Virus record (IMG/VR): IMGVR_UViG_3300040974_000011 | DNA: 20,000 nucleotides | DNA from: an uncultured virus (IMG/VR IMGVR_UViG_3300040974_000011) | Lineage: Duplodnaviria > Heunggongvirae > Uroviricota > Caudoviricetes | Direction: 5' to 3' (one strand) | Part shown: one piece after another, positions 1 through 18,551 of the stretch | Numbering within the stretch: position 1 is the stretch's first letter | Layout: each line of letters starts with the position of its first letter | Translations under genes and position numbers: made by a program | The notes under the pieces: generated by a model | Told to the model about the DNA's origin: nothing | The model's input: only the letters and a program-made list of their open reading frames with translations | Databases searched by the model: none

Positions 1-870
1 GTGGCGGAGCAGGTGCGGGTGGACATGAGGCAGGCCAGCAGCCTTTGCCGCGGTGGTTAGCCCCTTCTTGACCGACCGAACTGGCTTCCCGGCCCACTCG
101 ATCACGTAGTCCGACCGCGCGCCCTGTTTGGCCTCCAGCAAGCGCAAGCGGATCGTGCGTGTCATCTGCACGATGGCGCGTCCCTTATGCGCCGCTTTGA
201 TCTCAGGGTCTTCCAAGTCGATCTTGTTGCGGTCGAACAGCACCCGGTCCCATGTCAGCCCAAGGATGGCCCCCGCGCGCCCGGCCGTCGCGTAGGCCAA
301 ATGCACGAACAGGGCGAGGTGCGGCGTTTTGCACGCATCGGCCAGCAGCCTGATCTGGCGCGCGGTCAGATGCCGGTCGCGGCGATCACGCACGGTCGCC
401 GGCCGCTCAATGTCTGGTGCGGACTTGATCAGCCGATGTTTCTTGGCCCAGCGCAGCACTGTGCGGATCCGGCCTAGCTCGGTGATGATCGTGCCGTCCT
501 TCCTGCCGAGAGAGCGACGCGCCGCGATATAAGCTCGGCAGTCGGCAATCGTGATGTCCTCCGCCGACATCGCGCCAAAATGTGGGGCTAGCGCCTTCCA
601 CTGATGCGCCATGATAGCGACGGACGGATTGCCGGCCTTATCCCGGCGATAGGCTTCCCAAAGCTCGGCAACGGTCGTGCCCTTCGGCCTCAGAGCCTCG
701 GCGTAGACCGCTGGCGCGCGGCGGCGAGCCTCAGTCTCGTTATCGGTGCCGAGCCGGAAACGCCGCCGTTTTCCATCCTGCCAGAAGCTGAGGACGCATT
801 CGCCGTGAGGGAAGAGTCCCTGTCGCTTCTCTGATGCTCGAAGCCGGCCGATTTCATATTCGTCTGCCAT
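1..870 (-). CDS. int: Tyrosine recombinase/phage integrase (3' end runs off the window)
   Basis: Manual translation from ATG 870 (GGAG upstream): MADEYEIGRL...LAYATAGRAGAILGLTWDRV (catalytic Arg box)...HVHPHLLRH (H-x-x-R box) at the window edge. Absent from the ORF track because it has no stop in the window. Confidence 0.95.
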   Translation of the reverse strand, partial: MADEYEIGRLRASEKRQGLFPHGECVLSFWQDGKRRRFRLGTDNETEARRRAPAVYAEALRPKGTTVAELWEAYRRDKAGNPSVAIMAHQWKALAPHFGAMSAEDITIADCRAYIAARRSLGRKDGTIITELGRIRTVLRWAKKHRLIKSAPDIERPATVRDRRDRHLTARQIRLLADACKTPHLALFVHLAYATAGRAGAILGLTWDRVLFDRNKIDLEDPEIKAAHKGRAIVQMTRTIRLRLLEAKQGARSDYVIEWAGKPVRSVKKGLTTAAKAAGLPHVHPHLLRH

Positions 871-2639: not shown

Positions 2640-2702
2640 CTGGAGCAGATAGTCCCCGACGAGGTGCGCCACGATCTGGTCGGCGGTGAAGAAGGCGCTC
2701 AT
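2637..2702 (-). pseudogene. Original 5' end (22 codons) of the DUF3307 gene, cut off by the HNH insertion
   Basis: MSAFFTADQIVAHLVGDYLLQS, ATGA-coupled to the upstream gene; near-identical in protein to 2018-2077. Confidence 0.9.
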
Positions 2703-3832
2703 TCTTCCGCCTCCCCCTGAAGGGTGCGGAGCGCGGTTTCGATGGCGTCGGCTCGGTCGCGCATGCCGGCTTTGCGAGCCGTGTTGTGAACGTGATCGGC
2801 AGTCCCCCGCAGCCACATGACGAGCCCTTCCGGGGTCATGGGCCTAGGAACCTCGCGTAGCACCTCCTTCGCCTCCTCGACCGCCATGGATCCGGTCTTG
2901 AGGGTGGGCGAAGACTGGGGGGAGGGTTCGGGCGTTCTGGCTTCGCCCGTCCGGTCGTGCTCGATGGCCTGATCCTCGCCCATCGTCCGCCAGTCAGGCC
3001 ACGTCCGAGCGAAATTACGATCCTGCTTGGCCTGCATCGCCGGCAGCAGGTCTTCCGGCTTGCCGCCATGGCGCCAGAAGCCGTCCATCGCCAGGATGAT
3101 GACGTCGACCCACTCGGCCAGATCGTGCGGCTCGGCCTCGATCTCGCGAAGCTCCTTGGTGATGTGCTGGACGATGCCCTTGGTCCGCAGGGCCGGGCCG
3201 AACGTCTCCTTCGACCACGCCCATTGCCGGTGAAGGTAGGCGACGAGGTCCGCCCCCTTCTCCTTTCCTGATCCAGAGGCGAGAACGAGCTTCCCGGAGC
3301 GGTGAACTTCGTCGGATTTGATCGCCGATCGCAGATCCATAATGTAGTCCGGCAGCGTGCCGACTGATCCGTCCTTGTCGAACCAGTTTACGACCTCCAG
3401 AGCGGCTTCGCGCAACGTCAGCTCGCCTTCGAAGCGATCGCCGGGGAAGTCTGCTCTCAGCCGTTCCAGTTCGCCACCATCCCCATCCCCGCTTGAGGAG
3501 ACGGGTGCGGCGGCGACATGCTCGGCCCATTGGCTCGCATCGGTGATGACGCGGGCCAGCCGCTCGCCGTCGACGTCGCTTCGGACGAAGTTGGACAGCC
3601 GCGCTCGATCCGTAGCGGTGGAGTAGACGGTCAGGCCGTCTCGGACGGACAGGGCCACCGGCATCCGCGCCATGTACTGCCGGATCCAGGCGTCCCGCTT
3701 CTCGCAGTACTCCGCGTGGGTTTGTGCCCAGCCGGAGATGCCGGTTGCGTGCCCTCGCCCGTAGGCGTCGCGCAGGGCCTTCGCGAGATCACCGTCTCGG
3801 ACGGACGGGGCTGTATTGGTGGGGGTGTGCAT
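2699..3832 (-). CDS. Multi-domain phage protein with DUF550 (dATP/dGTP diphosphohydrolase, MazG-like) domain
   Basis: RQWAWSKETFGP...GIVQHITKELREIEAEPHDLAEWVDVIILAMDGFWRHG...AKQDRNFARTWPDWR is characteristic of DUF550. Confidence 0.85.
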   Translation of the reverse strand: MHTPTNTAPSVRDGDLAKALRDAYGRGHATGISGWAQTHAEYCEKRDAWIRQYMARMPVALSVRDGLTVYSTATDRARLSNFVRSDVDGERLARVITDASQWAEHVAAAPVSSSGDGDGGELERLRADFPGDRFEGELTLREAALEVVNWFDKDGSVGTLPDYIMDLRSAIKSDEVHRSGKLVLASGSGKEKGADLVAYLHRQWAWSKETFGPALRTKGIVQHITKELREIEAEPHDLAEWVDVIILAMDGFWRHGGKPEDLLPAMQAKQDRNFARTWPDWRTMGEDQAIEHDRTGEARTPEPSPQSSPTLKTGSMAVEEAKEVLREVPRPMTPEGLVMWLRGTADHVHNTARKAGMRDRADAIETALRTLQGEAEE

Positions 3833-6153: not shown

Positions 6154-6339
6154 GTGCCAAAAGACAAGCTCGACGACAAGACGTTGGTCCGCTTCAGAGC
6201 GGGCGTGCTCGACCGCATTGACGCGGTGGCGGGCAAGTTCCGGCGCGCAGTTTTCATCCGCGAAGCCGTCGAGACCGCACTGACAAAGGCAGAGAAGCGG
6301 CGGCCGGGCAAAGGGGCTACCGAGGGGGAGCGGCCTTGA
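6154..6339 (+). CDS. Ribbon-helix-helix (CopG/Arc-like) regulator (start uncertain: 6106, 6148 or 6154)
   Basis: KTLVRFRAGVLDRIDAVAGKFRRAVFIREAVETAL beta-helix-helix pattern; its stop overlaps the transposase start (TTGA). Confidence 0.78.
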   Translation: MPKDKLDDKTLVRFRAGVLDRIDAVAGKFRRAVFIREAVETALTKAEKRRPGKGATEGERP

Positions 6340-7628
6340 GCGATCTGCTTCGCTTGAAGCACCTGGAGCACGTCGCCGACTACGAGGAGGGCGACAAGCT
6401 CATCATCAAAGTCCAGAGCCGGAACCCGGTCCCCGAGCGCCAGTGCTGTCTCTTTGCCACCATGATCAAGAATGGCCGGAAGCTCGGGCAGCGGTATCGC
6501 GACGAGCCGATCCGGCGGCAGACCGTCCGGATAGAGATCGACCGACAGCGCTACAAGTGCTCAGCCTGCGGGAAGACCGGCATCTACGAGGCGCTGCCGG
6601 ACATCGATATCCGGCACGACATGACGAAGAAGCTGCTCGTGCGCATCCAGAAGGATGCAGTGGAGTGGCCGTTCAGCCATGCCGCCAAGATCAACGGTGT
6701 CGAGGCGAAGCAGGTCGAGCGGATTTTCCAGGACCATGCCGACAAGGTTCTGAAAGGATACCTGCCGAAGCTCCCGCGCGTTCTCAGCATGGACGAGAAG
6801 GTGATCCGGAAGAAGGCTCGGTTCATCATCGGCGACATTGAGAACAGCGCCATGCTCGACATGCAGATGTCGAGAAGGAAGATCGACCTCAACGAGTATT
6901 TTTCCCTGTTGCCGGGTCGCGACGATGTCGAGGTGATTTGCCAGGACATGTGGTCCACCTACCGCGAACTGAACAAGGGCTTGTTCAAGAACGCGACGGT
7001 CGTCATTGACAAATACCACGTCCAGCGGACGGCCAACAAAGGCGTCGAGGCCGTTCGGCGGCTCTTCCAGCAGGACGTGTCGAAGGCGGAGCGCATCCAC
7101 CTCAAGAACAAGCAGAGCGTCTTCCTGGCCCGCTGGGGCACCGCGAAGCCACGAACCATCAACCAGTTGAACGCCTTGTTCACGTACTTCCCCACGCTCA
7201 AGCGGGTCTACGAGTGTAAAGAGAGCTACTACGAGATTTACGACGCCGCCTCGAAGTACGAGGCAAACGAGATGATGAACCAGTGGCTCGTGGATCTACC
7301 GAAGGACCTACACCGGCCCTTCAAACCGGCGCGGGACGCGCTCAACAACTGGCGCCCGTGGATCTTGAACTACTGGGATCATCCCTATACGAACGCCTAC
7401 GCCGAGAGCCTGAACAACCTGATCGGCCGGATGAACATGCAGGGCGTCGGCTACAGCCCGGAAACCCTTCGCGCCAAGGCGCTCCTCAAGCACGGCGTGT
7501 TCGGCAAGACGCAGTGGGGCGAGTGGGTCCACATCGGGCGCGAAGGCAGCGTCCCGATGGTCTGGGACGTGGGCCTCGGGGTGCCGCTATCAACCTTAGA
7601 AGCCGACTTGGAGGCGGGCACGTTCTGA
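6336..7628 (+). CDS. ISL3-family DDE transposase
   Basis: N-terminal zinc finger (CCLF...RYKCSACG), VLSMDEK, VICQDMW, VVIDKYHV, TNAYAESLNNLI. Confidence 0.96.
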   Translation: MSDLLRLKHLEHVADYEEGDKLIIKVQSRNPVPERQCCLFATMIKNGRKLGQRYRDEPIRRQTVRIEIDRQRYKCSACGKTGIYEALPDIDIRHDMTKKLLVRIQKDAVEWPFSHAAKINGVEAKQVERIFQDHADKVLKGYLPKLPRVLSMDEKVIRKKARFIIGDIENSAMLDMQMSRRKIDLNEYFSLLPGRDDVEVICQDMWSTYRELNKGLFKNATVVIDKYHVQRTANKGVEAVRRLFQQDVSKAERIHLKNKQSVFLARWGTAKPRTINQLNALFTYFPTLKRVYECKESYYEIYDAASKYEANEMMNQWLVDLPKDLHRPFKPARDALNNWRPWILNYWDHPYTNAYAESLNNLIGRMNMQGVGYSPETLRAKALLKHGVFGKTQWGEWVHIGREGSVPMVWDVGLGVPLSTLEADLEAGTF

Positions 7629-13966: not shown

Positions 13967-14380
13967 TCAACGAGAGGGGAAAGCTGGCCCAAACCACTTT
14001 TCGATTGGCTTTGATGCTCGGCGCTGGGGCTCAGCTTTTGCAAAGCCACGGCTTTGGATTTTCGGCTTGGTCGCTGCGGCAGTGATGCCGAGCTGCGCCC
14101 GCTTGCGTCGCTTGGCTTGAGCGGCTGCCGAGTGGTCGGCTGCGTCCTTCACCCGCTTGCAGGTCTCGTAGTGGGCCGGGCCGCGATTGCCGGCCGTGTC
14201 GGATCCGCCATTCTCAAGCGCGATTTCATGTTCCACGAACCAGCGCTGACGGACGCCATCAATCCGCTCGCCGCAGGTCACACAGATGCCCTTGGTCCGC
14301 TCCCACGCGGCAAGAACGTCGCGAGGGCTCAGGCGCTTACGGGCAGTGGTGCCGACATCTTCGCAGACGACGAAAGGCAT
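13967..14380 (-). CDS. HNH-like nuclease domain phage protein
   Basis: GICVTCG...VEHEIALENGGSD..N....H..CK..K, plus a basic tail with KIQSRGF. Confidence 0.85.
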   Translation of the reverse strand: MPFVVCEDVGTTARKRLSPRDVLAAWERTKGICVTCGERIDGVRQRWFVEHEIALENGGSDTAGNRGPAHYETCKRVKDAADHSAAAQAKRRKRAQLGITAAATKPKIQSRGFAKAEPQRRASKPIEKWFGPAFPSR

Positions 14381-14838
14381 TAAGCAGCCCTCCGAATGCT
14401 CTGACGCAGCTTCGCCATCCGGTCGTAGAGGATGACGTTCACAGTGGCTGCGAGGTTTAGGCAGAAGGCGCTTGGGATCATCACCCTGCGCGGGCAGCGA
14501 TCGAGTAATTCGCCACCAAGCGTCCCATCCTCTGGGCCGAAGATGTAGAAGGCACGCTGCGGATGCGTGAAGCTGGGCAACTCAGTTGCGCCCGGAACCA
14601 GATCAACAGCGACAGGCACAGTATCGAAGGGGATCAACGACCACAGGTCATCGCCGCGCAAAACTGGGATGTGCCGGTAAGCTTTCGTCACATCCTGACA
14701 GCTCGTGACCGGCGTGCGGTCACCTTGGATAGCAACCAGCGATGCGCCGAAGACGTGGGCAGCGCGCATAACGCCGCCGACGTTCGCAGAGACCTTTGGC
14801 CGGACGAGGCCGATGGAGGCGAAGCCGCGGGCGCTCAT
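14380..14838 (-). CDS. SPOUT (SpoU/TrmH/TrmL-like) RNA methyltransferase
   Basis: PKVSANVGGVMRAA...IFGPEDGTL...VMIPS..CLNLAATVNVILYDR. Confidence 0.92.
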   Translation of the reverse strand: MSARGFASIGLVRPKVSANVGGVMRAAHVFGASLVAIQGDRTPVTSCQDVTKAYRHIPVLRGDDLWSLIPFDTVPVAVDLVPGATELPSFTHPQRAFYIFGPEDGTLGGELLDRCPRRVMIPSAFCLNLAATVNVILYDRMAKLRQSIRRAA

Positions 14839-15259: not shown

Positions 15260-15310
15260 TGTCTACGATTTGTAGCCACACCGGGTCAAGCCCGTTTCTA
15301 CGATGTGTAG
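15260..15310 (-). promoter_or_regulatory. pL promoter with two OL operators
   Basis: TTGACC(15289-15284)-N18-TAGACA(15265-15260); operators ctacgatttgtag 15263-15275 and ctacgatgtgtag 15298-15310. Confidence 0.85.
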
Positions 15311-15345
15311 CAAGAAAATTTGCGTTCTGAGAACGGAGATGGTAC

Positions 15346-15384
15346 AAAAGAAAATGCCCCGGGAACCATGGGTTCGACCGGGGC
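15346..15384 (-). terminator. Intrinsic terminator insulating pL from leftward (cI) read-through
   Basis: gccccgg/ccggggc stem with inner gaacc/ggttc, followed on the minus strand by ATTTTCTTTT. Confidence 0.75.
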
Positions 15385-15486
15385 GACAAACGGGCCATGC
15401 TTGGCGGCTACCCGTCTGTGAAACGTGTAATAGCGCAACACGCGCGCGCGTTCCAGATCAATCGTCGCCACTCATAGCCAAGCGTA

Positions 15487-15842
15487 GGGTCCGCAGACGG
15501 CAAGTGCTGCGGGCTCAATCGCCGGGCGGTTAGTGACGCTGGCGGCGGACGGGCGCGAAAGCGTGCCGGGAGTAAGCGGCGACCAGGAGCGGGGTTCGCA
15601 GCCGCAGGGCACCTGAATGGGGGACGCCCGAACCCGAAGGCCACCGGCCTTTAAGAACCCTCTAGGGTTGCATCCCGGTGGTGGTGCGATCCGACGGTAA
15701 GCGGCGGTTGGCTCCGGCCTTCAGTCCCCCGTCCCAGGTCGCATCCGCCTAGGTGAACTGAGGGGTCACGGCCCTTTACTCAGTCCCTACGCGGGGCGAC
15801 CTGTGGACGGGTCACAACGGTTCCACCAACCTTCAGGTACTC
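15487..15842 (+). ncRNA. Candidate large structured non-coding RNA, family unknown
   Basis: No credible ORF; at least 10 nested helices with G-U pairs on the + strand, a GAAA tetraloop and two candidate pseudoknots (see findings). Confidence 0.7.
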
Positions 15843-16470
15843 AGTTAGATATCCGCTTCCACTGCTTCGCGGGGACGATGGACATGACTTCGGCGACCCG
15901 CTTCACGTCGACCTCGTCCTGATCCGGGGCGTTGTGGCTGCCGATAGTGAAGGACCCGTCACGGGCGTGTTTCTTGAGGGTTTTTAGGAGATAGGTGCCG
16001 TCTCCGTCTTCTAGAACAACCTCTTGCCCAATCAGGGCTTCCGGCTCGCCATCGTACCATTTGGCGATGACGACTTCGCCGTCCTTGATCCGCGGGAACT
16101 GCGACTGCCCACGAGCCTCAAGGGCGAAGCAGCCTTCGGGAAGCGCGTAGGGAAGTTCGATTTCACCGAGCGCCAATTCGCCCTCCTCGACCCACCGGAT
16201 GGCCTCACCCAAGCCAACCGTTCCGACCACGTCAACAACCGTAGATCGGTTCGCGGTTCCTTCCCCAGTTAAAAGCCAGCTCGCCGACACGCGGAATTTT
16301 CGGGCGTATTTGAACGCCTCCTCCTCGCTGTAATCGCGAGCGCCCGGCTCCCCAGCGCGTTCGTGGGCGTTGTAGGTCGATACTGCCACGTCCAGCGCGA
16401 ATGCTGCGGCGCGGCCGGAACGGTATCGGCGCTCTCGCGCCCACCGCAATCTCTCACCCTTCGTCTTCAT
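15841..16470 (-). CDS. cI: CI-like repressor (XRE HTH + S24 peptidase)
   Basis: GERLRWARE...AAAFALDVAVSTYNAHE...VSASWLLTGEG; catalytic Ser (GQSQFP) and Lys (LLKTL). Confidence 0.93.
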   Translation of the reverse strand: MKTKGERLRWARERRYRSGRAAAFALDVAVSTYNAHERAGEPGARDYSEEEAFKYARKFRVSASWLLTGEGTANRSTVVDVVGTVGLGEAIRWVEEGELALGEIELPYALPEGCFALEARGQSQFPRIKDGEVVIAKWYDGEPEALIGQEVVLEDGDGTYLLKTLKKHARDGSFTIGSHNAPDQDEVDVKRVAEVMSIVPAKQWKRISN

Positions 16471-16543: not shown

Positions 16544-16834
16544 ATGAGCGCGGTTCAAGCCATCATCGCGAAGTTTGAGACGCCAGCGAAGTTCGGGCGG
16601 GCGATCAATTTGAAGGTCGTCAACCACGCGCACCAGATGTGGGACCGGATGTCGATCCCCGCGCTGCGGTGGCCAGACGTCGTCGAGGCCGCTTCTGAGC
16701 TAGGCATCAAAGGCGTCACAATCGAAGCTCTCATGGCCGCCCACGTGGCCGACGAGCCCCTTCGCCGAGCAAAACTTCAGCAGACCCGCGCCCGTCAGAA
16801 GTCTTCAAGTCAGCCGGAGGCTCGTGCGTCATGA
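16544..16834 (+). CDS. cro: Cro-like protein
   Basis: Divergent from cI; IIAKFETPAKFGRAI...AHQMWDRMSIPALRWPDVVEAA...GVTIEAL. Confidence 0.85.
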   Translation: MSAVQAIIAKFETPAKFGRAINLKVVNHAHQMWDRMSIPALRWPDVVEAASELGIKGVTIEALMAAHVADEPLRRAKLQQTRARQKSSSQPEARAS

Positions 16835-16977
16835 TTATGCTCGTTCTGAAGGCCTGGCTGGCAATGATGGTCATTATGACCGTCTGGTGTTTCTGCCGTT
16901 GGCGTCACATCGACAGCCCTGTCATTCCTGGCTTTGCCATCCTGATCCTCTGCGGTGCCGTGAGGTACGCGCTGTGA
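16831..16977 (+). CDS. Small two-helix membrane peptide (48 aa, not in ORF track)
   Basis: MIMLVLKAWLAMMVIMTVWCFCRWRHIDSPVIPGFAILILCGAVRYAL; ATGA and GTGA overlaps. Confidence 0.6.
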   Translation: MIMLVLKAWLAMMVIMTVWCFCRWRHIDSPVIPGFAILILCGAVRYAL

Positions 16978-17270
16978 GTGGGATTGATAGCCCTACCGCT
17001 GGGCACCGGCTCGCCAGTTTCGTTGATCGCATCCTCGCGATTGGCCGAGAGCAGGACGAACTGAACGGCGTCAAGAAAGAGATCTACGCCGAAGCTGCCG
17101 GCGAGGGCTTCGACAAGACGGCTATGGGCGCGCTCGTTCGCGAGCTGCGCAAGGCCGAGAAGGACAGCGGCAAGGCGGCTGAGCAGGCCGAACTGCTGGA
17201 TCTGTATCGCGACTCCTACCATCGCGCCGTCTCGCACGTAGGCGCGCACATACGCGAGGCGGCGGAATGA
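16974..17270 (+). CDS. GapR-like (DUF2312) DNA-binding protein
   Basis: RLASFVDRILAIGREQDELNGVKKEIYAEAAGEGFDKTAMGALVRELRK...ELLDLY. Confidence 0.85.
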   Translation: MSGIDSPTAGHRLASFVDRILAIGREQDELNGVKKEIYAEAAGEGFDKTAMGALVRELRKAEKDSGKAAEQAELLDLYRDSYHRAVSHVGAHIREAAE

Positions 17271-18041: not shown

Positions 18042-18551
18042 ATGTCTGGCTTCCGTACCTTTGAGACCAGCCGCGTGAGCTTCGGCGACAATCGCCCAAA
18101 GGCGCCGCTCGTGGATGCCGCTCTGGTGCGTCCGCCGATCAAGCGAGCGCCTGCGAAGCAATGGTCTGAGCCGAAGATATGTCAGAAGGGCTTCATCCCT
18201 CCGAAGCCCGTAACTCCTGAGGATTTTCAGCAGCCGTGTGCGTTCCCGTTGCGGCGGCTGATGGATCTGGTGTGCTACATCACACAGTTCCCGGCCGTGC
18301 ATATTCGCGGACAGCGGCGTCTGGGCAATCTCGTCCGCGCTCGTCAGATCCTGTTCTGGCTCGCTAAGAACAATACCGAGGCGAGCTTTGTGCAGATCGG
18401 CCGCCTCGTCGGCGGCCGCGATCACACCACGGTGATGCACGGAGTACGCCGCGTTCAGGCGGTCATTGATCGCCTGAATATTGAGGTCTCTGACTGCCCG
18501 GTCACGATGGCCGAGCGCCTTTGGCGTGCCGAATGGTCGAGGGGGAAATGA
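18042..18551 (+). CDS. Phage protein with DnaA C-terminal (domain IV) HTH
   Basis: RARQILFWLAKNNTEASFVQIGRLVGGRDHTTVMHGVRRV. Confidence 0.9.
   Translation: MSGFRTFETSRVSFGDNRPKAPLVDAALVRPPIKRAPAKQWSEPKICQKGFIPPKPVTPEDFQQPCAFPLRRLMDLVCYITQFPAVHIRGQRRLGNLVRARQILFWLAKNNTEASFVQIGRLVGGRDHTTVMHGVRRVQAVIDRLNIEVSDCPVTMAERLWRAEWSRGK

What the first reader, a model, noticed from the sequence alone, without database searches (positions are those of the whole stretch)
15487..15842. Large, doubly pseudoknotted candidate ncRNA in the immunity accessory slot
Seen (+ strand helices): gggtccgcag/ctgcgggctc 15487-15516; tcgccg 15519-24/cggcga 15577-82 enclosing ggcg/cgct and gcgc-GAAA-gcgt; gcgg/ccgc hairpin 15589-15605; long-range acctgaa 15611-17/ttcaggt 15832-38 closing a multibranch domain. 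That domain holds atgggggac 15617-25/gtcccccgt 15724-32, gaaggcc 15636-42/ggccttc 15716-22, accgg/ccggt around aaccc-tcta-gggtt, a long arm caggtcgc 15735-42/gcgacctg 15796-803 with tccgc/gcggg, tagg/ccta, actgag/ctcagt, and gtgga/tccac. Two pseudoknots are possible: gggttcg 15592-98 with bulged cgaaccc 15629-35 (7 bp perfect), and gtt-a-gtgac 15529-37 with gtcac-aac 15811-18. The motif GACGGYAAG occurs twice (15496, 15693). Repeated G-U pairs favour the + strand. The structure ends at the cI stop, convergent with it; only a weak TTCCAG-N16-CATAGC promoter precedes it. Established: this position holds rexAB-type lysogen-expressed exclusion genes in lambdoid phages. Inference: an RNA-only moron of ribozyme-like complexity (defence, exclusion, protein sponge or cI control). 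I cannot match it to RNase P, tmRNA, group I/II introns, SRP or 6S.
Basis: partly seen in the sequence, partly recalled or inferred. Interest (0 to 1): 0.88.

Follow-up and report, generated by a model that had tools for sequence, protein, structure and literature searches.

The report
New structured RNA in prophage immunity
A real, previously unclassified folded RNA gene of roughly 360-490 bases lies next to the repressor gene of a few Methylobacterium prophages; its job is unknown, but its position suggests that it tunes or exploits the dormant (lysogenic) state.

Summary
The region is a genuine structured non-coding RNA gene on the + strand. I found five more copies: three Methylobacterium-genus genomes (G001 = M. 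suomiense, G406, G407) and two variants on one metagenome contig (L108).

- **Structure:** on the 6-sequence alignment my structure pairs 90.4% of cells, against 37-43% with partners slid. 40 of 115 pairs change on both sides, against 3-8 slid.
- **Strand:** G-U outnumbers A-C 63 to 11 in helices, which fixes the + strand.
- **Not something else:** there is no conserved ORF, no Rfam 15 family and no tRNA or tmRNA.
9 of 17 hold, 7 do not, 1 is open. His "pseudoknot 1" is a plain nested helix and "pseudoknot 2" is unsupported. A different tertiary contact is supported: a 7-bp kissing loop, 15641-47 with 15675-81.
- **Extent:** conservation runs upstream to a promoter-like TTGNNN-N17-YAMAAM (15320-48), present in 5 of 5 copies, so the RNA may be about 490 nt.
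- **Context:** in 4 of 4 contexts it lies convergent with a repressor gene, and these repressors are unrelated or only 55% identical to each other.

Function is inferred only. I found no usable transcript evidence. Verdict: a new RNA family, moderately high interest.

The parts
15263..15310 (.). Two left operators, CTAC-N5-GTAG palindromes at 15263-75 and 15298-310. They flank a leftward early promoter read as TTGACC 15290-85 on the - strand.
   Evidence: The motif occurs 3 times in 20 kb against 0.03 expected. The third copy is at 16521-33 beside the repressor start. The promoter reading is from the sequence.
15320..15348 (+). Promoter-like element for the RNA: TTGCGT (15320-25), a 17-nt spacer, then TACAAA (15343-48). 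The predicted start is about 15355.
   Evidence: TTGNNN-N17-YAMAAM is kept in 5 of 5 copies with an unrelated spacer, 5-7 nt before the GC hairpin. It was not found by the strict E. coli consensus scan. It is confounded by the - strand terminator U-tract.
15356..15384 (.). GC-rich hairpin. On the + strand it is the likely 5' terminal hairpin of the RNA. On the - strand it is followed by a U-tract (15355-15344) and reads as the intrinsic terminator that ends repressor transcription before the early-left operon.
   Evidence: Folded. Conserved as a hairpin with different stems in 5 of 5 copies. A second - strand terminator-like site lies at 15335-15323.
15390..15446 (+). Upstream conserved leader: hairpin ACGGG/CCCGU (15390-94/15411-15), a variable-sequence hairpin at 15432-46, then the conserved GUYCCAG (15450-56).
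   Evidence: helix 1: 25 of 25 cells paired, with A-U changed to U-A in G407. Helix 2: each copy has a different palindrome at the same place. MAFFT aligns this helix poorly (62% paired).
15487..15516 (+). Hairpin H1: 10 bp plus 2 inner pairs, with a conserved GGCAA-type loop.
   Evidence: helix 3: 91.7% paired, 4 pairs changed on both sides. Several G-U pairs are valid only on the + strand.
15520..15547 (+). Hairpin H2: 15520-28 pairs with 15537-47, with a GG bulge and a 7-10 nt loop.
   Evidence: helix 4: 100% paired, 2 pairs changed on both sides.
15549..15569 (+). Hairpin H3 with a lower extension and one bulged base. The loop is GNRA-type (GAAA) in window and M. suomiense and GCGA in G406.
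   Evidence: helices 5 and 6: 87.5% and 83.3% paired, with 3 and 1 pairs changed on both sides. The competing 4-bp helix 15565-68/15577-80 is ambiguous (75%).
15570..15591 (+). Purine-rich single-stranded joiner with the invariant ACCAGGA (15582-88).
   Evidence: Invariant in 6 of 6 copies. No conserved partner was found.
15592..15635 (+). Hairpin H5/H5b: 15592-97/15630-35 and 15607-10/15626-29, with a 15-nt conserved loop (15611-25).
   Evidence: helices 7 and 8: both 100% paired. 4 of 6 and 1 of 4 pairs changed on both sides.
15637..15692 (+). Two hairpins joined by a 7-bp kissing loop. Pa is 15637-40/15648-51 with loop 15641-47. Pb is 15665-74/15683-92 with loop 15675-82.
   Evidence: helices 10, 11 and 12. 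The kissing helix has 41 of 42 cells paired and 3 of 7 pairs changed on both sides. Pa has 3 of 4 and Pb 5 of 10 pairs changed on both sides. All three cross one another, so only a loop-loop contact fits.
15693..15733 (+). Arm P11: base helix GACGG/CCGUC (15693-97/15729-33) with a UAAG internal loop and inner helices.
   Evidence: helices 13-15. The base helix has versions GACGG/CCGUC, GGCAG/CUGCC and GGCAG/CUGUC. A further version appears in a relative's contig ends (table 7).
15735..15803 (+). Long arm H12: 15735-42/15796-803 plus inner helices.
   Evidence: helices 16 and 17: 23+3 pairs, 91-100% paired, 11 pairs changed on both sides.
15804..15842 (+). 3' tail. UCAGG (15833-37) is conserved and may pair with the H5b loop (15611-17). 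The true 3' end is unknown.
   Evidence: helix 9: 8 of 11 cells paired and no covariation. No + strand terminator found.
15841..16470 (-). cI-like repressor gene (S24 peptidase family), convergent with the RNA. Homologues are 209 aa.
   Evidence: Pfam PF00717 and PHROG 4. The closest homologues cover 89% of the longer ORF.

Best explanation
This is the gene for a previously unclassified, highly structured non-coding RNA carried in the immunity region of a few Methylobacterium temperate phages.

Shown here:
- The + strand fold is under selection. It consists of about 12 helices and a 7-bp kissing loop.
- The region does not encode a conserved protein.
- It belongs to no Rfam 15 family.
- It travels as a module with the left operator/terminator region.
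- It always lies convergent with the repressor gene, although the repressors differ.

Inferred:
- It is transcribed from its own sigma-70-type promoter (15320-48), back to back with the early-left promoter. That promoter does not overlap an operator, so the RNA would also be made in lysogens.
- It starts at about 15355 with a stable hairpin and is roughly 490 nt long.

Most likely mechanism (my commitment, about 0.35): the module acts on immunity. No - strand terminator is seen between the repressor stop (15841) and the hairpin at 15384-56. The repressor mRNA should therefore carry a 3' UTR of about 490 nt that is fully complementary to this RNA, and the two polymerases run head-on. The RNA would then set repressor level, and so the induction threshold, through transcriptional interference or duplex-dependent decay. 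The compact fold would give stability and limit pairing.

I put identity as a real new RNA family at about 0.9. The figure below is for the whole statement.
For: **Covariation.** 90.4% of 604 cells are paired, against 36.7-42.8% with partners slid. 40 of 115 pairs change on both sides, against 3-8 slid. 0 of 500 shuffles reach four of the five measures (9 of 500 reach the fifth, further pair types).

**Strand.** G-U 63 against A-C 11 cells.

**Folding energy.** z = -2.66 and -3.32 on +, against -1.80 and -1.93 on -.

**No ORF.** Only short matches that hop between frames. There are 1-nt indels between copies.

**No known family.**

**Homologues.** L001/G001 is 74% identical over 330 nt. G406 scores 121.5 bits and G407 50.5 bits with model R1. 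The same three score 89-116 bits with the independent 5'-domain model R3. L108 comes from the metagenome scan.

**Context.** A PHROG 4 / S24 repressor lies convergent, 3' to 3', in 4 of 4 loci with flanks. These repressors are 55% identical or not detectable by BLAST at 1e-8. The RNA and repressor lie between the CTAC-N5-GTAG operators.

**Promoter-like element.** Conserved in 5 of 5 copies.

**Terminators.** No terminator-like site on either strand lies between 15385 and 15841.
Against: - There is no direct transcript evidence and no mapped 5' or 3' end.
- The strict promoter scan finds nothing.
- The -10-like hexamer is the complement of the - strand terminator's U-tract. In window and M. 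suomiense the -35 lies in a second - strand terminator-like hairpin. Its conservation could therefore have another cause.
- Only 6 copies exist, 4 of them full length, and L108a and L108b are close relatives. The shuffle control ignores relatedness.
- A conserved elaborate fold is not needed for a plain antisense RNA.
- In G407 a 128-aa ORF and an AT-rich spacer lie between the RNA and the repressor gene. Overlap with the repressor mRNA may therefore not be universal.
- No conserved trans target or partner was found.
Confidence: 0.4

Rival explanations
1. It is a stand-alone, trans-acting 'RNA moron'. The prophage makes a stable folded RNA that works through its shape: binding or sponging a host or phage protein, sensing a ligand, or assembling into an RNA-only oligomer. 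This would benefit the lysogen or the phage. The position beside the repressor gene would only be the usual slot for lysogen-expressed accessory genes.
For: - The fold, not mere complementarity, is conserved across heteroimmune phages.
- GNRA-type loops, a kissing loop and invariant single-stranded blocks such as ACCAGGA are typical of RNAs with tertiary structure or protein partners.
- In G407 the RNA is separated from the repressor gene by another ORF.
Against: - No partner gene is conserved next to it.
- No conserved complementary target exists.
- It lies on the strand opposite to the repressor, unlike rexAB-type genes, which are co-transcribed with cI (established knowledge of lambda).
- The convergent position is kept in 4 of 4 contexts.
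Confidence: 0.3
2. It is a riboswitch-like leader. The fold senses a signal and decides whether polymerase that started at 15355 stops after 15842 or runs on. Running on means going antisense through the repressor gene and then sense into cro and the early-right operon. This would be a repressor-independent route to induction.
For: - The + strand beyond the RNA leads through antisense repressor into cro and early-right genes, all on +.
- Two mutually exclusive pairings of 15688-93 exist, with 15665-69 or with 15808-13, and each shows some compensation.
- There is no intrinsic terminator at the 3' end.
Against: - The alternative helix 15688-93/15808-13 fails in G406.
- No ligand class is suggested.
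- There is no expression platform.
- At 490 nt it is far larger than known riboswitches.
Confidence: 0.1
3. The selected element is on the - strand. It would be a structured 3' UTR or insulator of the repressor mRNA that stabilises it and stops read-through into the early-left operon.
For: - The repressor transcript should run through the region to the hairpin plus U-tract at 15384-15344.
- The - strand also folds somewhat better than shuffles, with z = -1.8 to -1.9.
Against: - 63 G-U cells in conserved helices would become A-C mismatches on the - strand, against only 11 the other way.
- Several compensatory series pass through G-U intermediates that are valid on + only.
Confidence: 0.05
4. 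It is not an RNA at all: chance GC-rich hairpins, a degraded protein gene, or DNA-level sites.
For: GC-rich DNA (about 68%) gives many hairpins.
Against: - Covariation is far above the slid and shuffled controls.
- The element is kept in heteroimmune prophages while the flanks differ.
- No frame is conserved.
Confidence: 0.03

Closest known systems
ROOL and GOLLD (large 'ornate' RNAs often carried by prophages; Rfam families; cryo-EM paper PMC12286853, of which I saw only the search listing and the start of the abstract)
   Same: It is a large, elaborately folded RNA of unknown function, phage-borne, with no adjacent partner protein, and with a loop-loop (kissing) contact.
   Different: - No Rfam match.
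- Smaller, about 360-490 nt.
- No tRNA genes nearby.
- It is tied to the repressor/operator region.
- It is so far found only in one alphaproteobacterial genus.
- Whether its kissing loop is intra- or intermolecular is unknown.
Lambda OOP RNA and P22 sar RNA (short antisense RNAs of phage regulatory regions; recalled knowledge)
   Same: It is transcribed convergently towards a lysis-lysogeny regulator gene from its own promoter. Complementarity with that gene's transcript is expected.
   Different: - Those RNAs are about 70 nt, simple hairpins with their own terminators.
- This one is 5-7 times larger, with a conserved multi-helix fold and no visible terminator.
- Overlap with the coding part of the repressor gene is not shown.
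P4 CI RNA and P1/P7 c4 RNA (RNA immunity factors; c4 is in Rfam; otherwise recalled)
   Same: It is an RNA encoded in an immunity region of a temperate element.
   Different: - No Rfam c4 match.
- Those are about 80-nt processed RNAs with defined complementary target boxes. No such targets were found here.
- A protein repressor is present here.
Lambda rexAB slot (lysogen-expressed exclusion genes downstream of cI; recalled)
   Same: It occupies the same map position, between the repressor gene and the left operators, bounded by a terminator.
   Different: rexAB are proteins co-transcribed with cI from PRM. This is a non-coding RNA on the opposite strand with its own putative promoter.
ColE1 RNA I / RNA II 7-nt kissing loops (recalled)
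   Same: Seven-base fully complementary hairpin loops.
   Different: Here both loops lie in one molecule, 13 nt apart, and there is no link to replication control.

Membership tests
Any Rfam 15 family (RNase P, tmRNA, 6S, SRP, group I/II introns, GOLLD, ROOL, HEARO, c4, riboswitches and others) | Score at or above the family's gathering threshold with its covariance model | tested here: not met
   - 0 matches at gathering in the 20-kb window.
- At E up to 10 there were 4 matches of 14.5-17.2 bits, each far below its cut-off.
- On four homologue loci nothing fell on the RNA. The only hits came from L108's artificial hairpin.
tmRNA / tRNA-like | tRNA-like domain or tag reading frame detectable by ARAGORN | tested here: not met
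   0 genes in the window.
ROOL/GOLLD-type ornate prophage RNAs | Carried by prophages | tested here: met
   Integrase, Erf, NinB, repressor, cro side and operators are in the window. G407's contig is listed in IMG/VR.
ROOL/GOLLD-type ornate prophage RNAs | Sequence/structure homology to the families' models; frequent tRNA neighbours | tested here: not met
   no match; no tRNA.
ROOL/GOLLD-type ornate prophage RNAs | Homo-oligomeric RNA-only assembly | not testable with these tools
   This needs native gels, SEC-MALS or cryo-EM.
cis-antisense RNAs of phage switches (OOP, sar) | Own promoter, convergent with and overlapping the target gene's transcript | tested here: inconclusive
   The convergent position holds in 4 of 4 contexts. 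The promoter-like element is conserved. Overlap is only inferred from the lack of a - strand terminator before 15384. No ends are mapped.
cis-antisense RNAs of phage switches (OOP, sar) | Short (about 70 nt) simple hairpin RNA with an intrinsic terminator | tested here: not met
   The conserved fold spans at least 356 nt with about 12 helices. No + strand terminator was found.
Type I toxin-antitoxin (small hydrophobic peptide plus RNA) | Conserved small toxin ORF next to the RNA, with complementarity to it | tested here: not met
   A 37-aa hydrophobic ORF exists in the window only. The other copies have unrelated first genes. No complement of 11 nt or more is shared among contexts.
Protein-coding gene | An open frame kept across homologues | tested here: not met
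   Only 11-71 aa matches that change frame. There are 1-nt indels.
Retron / reverse-transcriptase- or nuclease-associated guide RNAs | Adjacent RT, TnpB/IscB or similar partner gene | tested here: not met
   No such domain appears in 36 window ORFs scanned with Pfam and 30 with PHROGs. The only transposase is an ISL3 DDE enzyme 8 kb away.

The most novel reading that the evidence does not exclude
This RNA is a new class of RNA-only lysis-lysogeny device. It would be a portable fold of about 490 nt that senses a cellular signal, or self-assembles through its kissing loops. It would thereby decide whether transcription from its own promoter runs antisense through the repressor gene and on into cro. 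That would give temperate phages a repressor-cleavage-independent way to leave lysogeny, or an RNA-based way to hold it.
Probability: 0.12. Interest if true: 0.9.

Novelty: new variant of a known kind. Interest (0 to 1): 0.66.

Why it matters
Large RNAs with conserved complex folds are rare in bacteria, and almost every one studied has turned out to do something unusual. This one sits at the exact point where a temperate phage decides between dormancy and growth. It is exchanged between phages with different repressors, so it looks like a self-contained functional module. A cultured lysogen, M. suomiense DSM 14458, carries a copy, so the question of its function is directly testable. Its rarity limits its general importance: 3 of 146 genomes of one genus, and not found in 300 other genomes sampled from the family and order.

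Tried and rejected
**Searches that found no further copies**
- BLAST of the RNA against the phage and plasmid collections gave no match.
- Three IMG/VR scans found nothing: one by repressor protein and two by DNA patterns.
0 of the 80 loci fetched matched model R2. The 40 not fetched were not examined.
- A tighter pattern found only G407's own contig plus one chance hit.
- BLAST over 401 family genomes listed 42 genomes at E <= 0.01. Only G001 is a long match (326 nt). The others listed span 21-75 nt and are GC-rich, so I read them as chance.
- In the metagenome scan, 5 of 7 loci were chance hits in coding-like DNA.

**Weak model hits dropped**
- G471 scored 25.8 bits with R1.
- Nine genomes scored 20-25 bits with R3. 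None of their 11 loci has the central domain beside it.

**Sequencing runs**
- No RNA holder is listed.
- Only contigs could be laid. Run X7 (kind guessed) covers only 15587-15814 of the 3 kb laid. Runs X1 and X2 cover scattered pieces of the whole region. No common ends appear.
- None of this is usable as evidence on expression.

**Ideas tested and dropped**
- A type I toxin-antitoxin pair with the 37-aa peptide.
- A trans target by complementarity of 11 nt or more.
- The group II domain-5 likeness of hairpin H3, the ZTP-like GACGCUGG and CsrA-type GGA motifs. I considered these from memory only. They are unsupported by Rfam.
- Helix 15565-68/15577-80 and helix 15688-93/15808-13 stay ambiguous.

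- No whole genome is held for the window.
Full report
**What the window is.** The 20-kb window is a lambdoid-type temperate phage or prophage of a Methylobacterium-like host. These genes are on the - strand:
- an integrase (1-870);
- an early-left operon with Erf, NinB and HNH genes and a SpoU-family methylase;
- an S24-family cI-like repressor (15841-16470).

These are on the + strand:
- a cro-side operon with a GapR-like protein;
- a DnaA-C HTH protein;
- a Bro-N protein.

The palindrome CTAC-N5-GTAG occurs exactly three times, against 0.03 expected. Two copies lie at 15263-75 and 15298-310, and one at 16521-33 beside the repressor start. The finding and the repressor gene therefore lie between left and right operators, that is, in the immunity region. 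No whole genome is held for the window. The closest named repressor homologue, at 55%, is from Methylorubrum suomiense.

**Checking the observation.** The + strand of 15487-15842 folds to -178.6 kcal/mol. Shuffles average -162.0 (sd 6.2), so z = -2.66, and 0 of 100 shuffles fold as well. The - strand gives z = -1.80. This is modest, so the real test is comparative.

**Finding relatives.**
- BLAST against phage and plasmid records found nothing, and so did three IMG/VR scans, one by protein and two by DNA pattern.
- A scan of species-representative genomes for repressor relatives returned 71 loci. Only one, L001 (M. suomiense), carries similar DNA: 74% over 330 nt, nhmmer E = 8.6e-51, again directly 3' of the repressor gene. 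Model R2 later confirmed 1 of 71.
- A two-block pattern in the metagenome collection gave 7 loci. One is the window's own contig (L102, 100% identical). One is L108. Five are chance hits in coding-like DNA.
- L108 is a 1158-nt chimeric assembly folded back at the RNA's long hairpin. It holds two slightly different copies, a and b, and both lack the 3' end.
- A covariance model of the central 152 nt (R1) was run over all 146 genomes held for G001's genus. It found G001 (159 bits), G406 (121.5 bits), G407 (50.5 bits) and a doubtful G471 (25.8 bits).
- An independent model of the 5' domain (R3) found the same three at 89-116 bits. It also gave nine 20-25-bit hits, none of which has the central domain beside it.
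- Model R2 found nothing new in samples of 150 other genomes from the family and 150 from the order.
- In IMG/VR the only true hit is G407's own 60,044-bp contig.
- The family is therefore rare and, in what I searched, confined to one genus.

**Structure and covariation.** I built the structure from pairwise and multiple alignments and counted it on the 6-row MAFFT alignment A6.
- 115 pairs in 17 helices, with 90.4% of 604 cells paired. With every 3' partner slid by 1-3 columns the figure is 36.7-42.8%.
- 40 pairs have changes on both sides, against 3-8 when slid.
- The covariation score is 0.348, against 0.05-0.08 when slid.
- 0 of 500 column shuffles reach the observed value on four of the five measures; 9 of 500 reach it for further pair types.

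Well-supported elements:

| Element | Window coordinates | Result |
|---|---|---|
| H1 | 15487-96 / 15507-16 | 91.7% paired |
| H2 | 15520-28 / 15537-47 | 100% paired |
| H3 plus lower extension | within 15549-69 | 83-88% paired |
| H5 | 15592-97 / 15630-35 | 100% paired, 4 of 6 pairs compensated |
| H5b | 15607-10 / 15626-29 | 100% paired |
| Pa | 15637-40 / 15648-51 | 3 of 4 pairs compensated |
| Pb | 15665-74 / 15683-92 | 5 of 10 pairs compensated |
| P11 base | 15693-97 / 15729-33 | 86.7% paired |
| Long arm | 15735-15803 | 11 compensated pairs |

The loops of Pa and Pb pair with each other, 15641-47 with 15675-81. 41 of 42 cells are paired and 3 of 7 pairs are compensated. This helix crosses both hairpin stems, and those stems also covary, so a kissing-loop contact is the only consistent reading.

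MAFFT misplaces the most divergent copy (G407) in a few helices. Read by eye, G407 forms them with different sequences, so the counts are if anything conservative. One caveat: there are only six rows, two of them close relatives, and the shuffle control ignores relatedness.

**Which strand.** In the conserved helices G-U cells number 63 and A-C cells 11. On the - strand these numbers would swap.

- Counted alone, the helices that are only his give 61% paired cells, against 34-46% when slid. This excess is expected because they were derived from the window. They show almost no compensation.
- Overall 9 of 17 hold, 7 do not, and the long-range acctgaa/ttcaggt stays open, with 8 of 11 cells paired and no covariation. 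UCAGG is kept in the three tails that align, but G406's loop differs.
- His 'pseudoknot 1' is helix H5. It is nested, because the competing gcgg/ccgc hairpin is not conserved.
- 'Pseudoknot 2' is not supported.
- Two further helices are ambiguous: 15565-68/15577-80 and 15688-93/15808-13 (75% and 83%). The second fails in G406.

**Not coding, not a known RNA.**
- Open frames across the four full copies match only over 11-71 residues and hop between frames. Single-base indels separate the copies.
- Rfam 15 gives no match at gathering thresholds. Only noise appears at E up to 10 in the window, and nothing falls on the RNA in the homologue loci.
- ARAGORN finds no tRNA or tmRNA.
- Three full-text searches found no description of such an RNA. 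I also looked up passages in one Methylorubrum sRNA preprint (10.1101/2022.01.24.477521), where 'phage' occurs 0 times. Subscription journals are not covered by these searches.

**Extent and promoter.** Conservation continues upstream of 15487.
- A hairpin ACGGG/CCCGU lies at 15390-94/15411-15. It is always paired, with A-U changed to U-A in G407.
- A hairpin at 15432-46 has a stem that differs in every copy.
- The block GUYCCAG follows.
- Further upstream all five copies share TTGNNN, a 17-nt unrelated spacer, then YAMAAM. In the window this is TTGCGT 15320-25 and TACAAA 15343-48. It lies 5-7 nt before a GC-rich hairpin at 15356-84.
- I read this as the RNA's sigma-70-type promoter, with a start near 15355 and an RNA of about 490 nt. 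That RNA folds with z = -3.32 on + against -1.93 on -.

Three caveats apply. The strict E. coli-consensus scan reports no promoter. The same hairpin followed by a U-tract is, on the - strand, the terminator expected to stop repressor transcripts before the early-left genes, so the '-10' is also the U-tract's complement. In the window and M. suomiense the '-35' lies in a second - strand terminator-like site at 15335-23. The invariant TTG at fixed spacing in all five copies is what favours the promoter reading. It remains an inference.

**Context.**
- In all 4 loci with flanks the RNA lies 3' to 3' with a PHROG 4 / S24-type repressor gene.
- The repressors are 55% identical (M. suomiense) or not detectable at 1e-8 (G406, G407), and G406's operator-like repeats differ.
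- The RNA therefore moves as a module among heteroimmune phages.
- In G407 a 128-aa ORF and an AT-rich spacer lie between the RNA and the repressor gene.
- No partner gene is conserved. The first early-left gene is a 37-aa hydrophobic peptide in the window but differs elsewhere. No reverse transcriptase or guide-RNA nuclease is present. No complementary target of 11 nt or more is shared between contexts.

**How it most likely works.**

Shown:
- a selected + strand fold;
- a fixed convergent position next to the repressor gene;
- modular transfer between phages.

Inferred:
- its own promoter, back to back with the early-left promoter and not overlapping an operator, so the RNA would also be expressed in lysogens;
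- a repressor mRNA that runs through the region to the terminator at 15384-44, and so is complementary to the RNA over about 490 nt;
- head-on transcription.

On this basis I commit, at about 0.35, to a role in setting repressor level through interference or duplex-dependent decay. The main rival, at about 0.3, is a stand-alone trans-acting RNA whose fold binds a protein or ligand or self-assembles. That rival explains the elaborate conserved fold better. A read-through switch leading into cro (about 0.1) is the boldest reading still open.

**Expression data.** See Tried and rejected. No holder is listed as RNA and only contigs could be laid. One useful by-product came from this. The ends of a relative's contig in run X14 flank the P11 arm with yet another complementary version of its base helix (table 7).

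**Verdict.** This is a real feature and a new RNA family, in the known broad kind of phage-borne structured RNAs of unknown function. His detailed structure is about half right, and his functional ideas remain untested.

Noticed in passing
window 6336-7628 (+): An ISL3-family DDE transposase (Pfam PF01610, E = 1.7e-44) sits on the opposite strand inside the otherwise leftward early operon. It looks like an insertion sequence that landed in the prophage.
   Followed up: partly
window 15224-15111 (-): The first ORF after the leftward promoter encodes a 37-aa hydrophobic peptide. It is not conserved in the other RNA-bearing prophages. Only the ribosome-binding and start region is alike.
   Followed up: yes
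L108 1-1158: This metagenome contig is a fold-back chimera joined at the RNA's long hairpin. It carries two slightly different copies of the RNA on opposite strands. Its artificial perfect hairpin draws spurious Rfam microRNA hits.
   Followed up: yes
L108 about 575-587 (- strand), equivalent to window 15432-46: In copy L108a the variable upstream hairpin of the RNA leader has the sequence CTAC-N5-GTAG. This is the same palindrome as the window's repressor operators. It could be chance or a repressor site inside the RNA gene.
   Followed up: no
L111 1745-1895 and L114 8655-9041 (-): In G407 an AT-rich spacer of about 150 nt and a 128-aa ORF with no family match lie between the RNA and the repressor gene. 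This looks like an extra inserted gene.
   Followed up: partly
window 15335-15323 (-): A second terminator-like hairpin with a T-run lies just beyond the main - strand terminator. It overlaps the putative -35 of the RNA promoter. It is also present in M. suomiense but not evident in G406 or G407.
   Followed up: partly
window 14380-14838 (-), 2699-3832 (-), 16824-17270 (+), 18042-18551 (+): The phage carries a SpoU-family RNA methyltransferase, a protein with a dATP/dGTP pyrophosphohydrolase domain, a GapR-like DNA-binding protein and a DnaA C-terminal HTH protein. The SpoU gene is not shared by the other RNA-bearing prophages within 5 kb.
   Followed up: partly
L110 1229-1246 (+): In G406 a + strand terminator-like hairpin with a T-run lies directly upstream of the RNA and overlaps its putative -35.
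   Followed up: no
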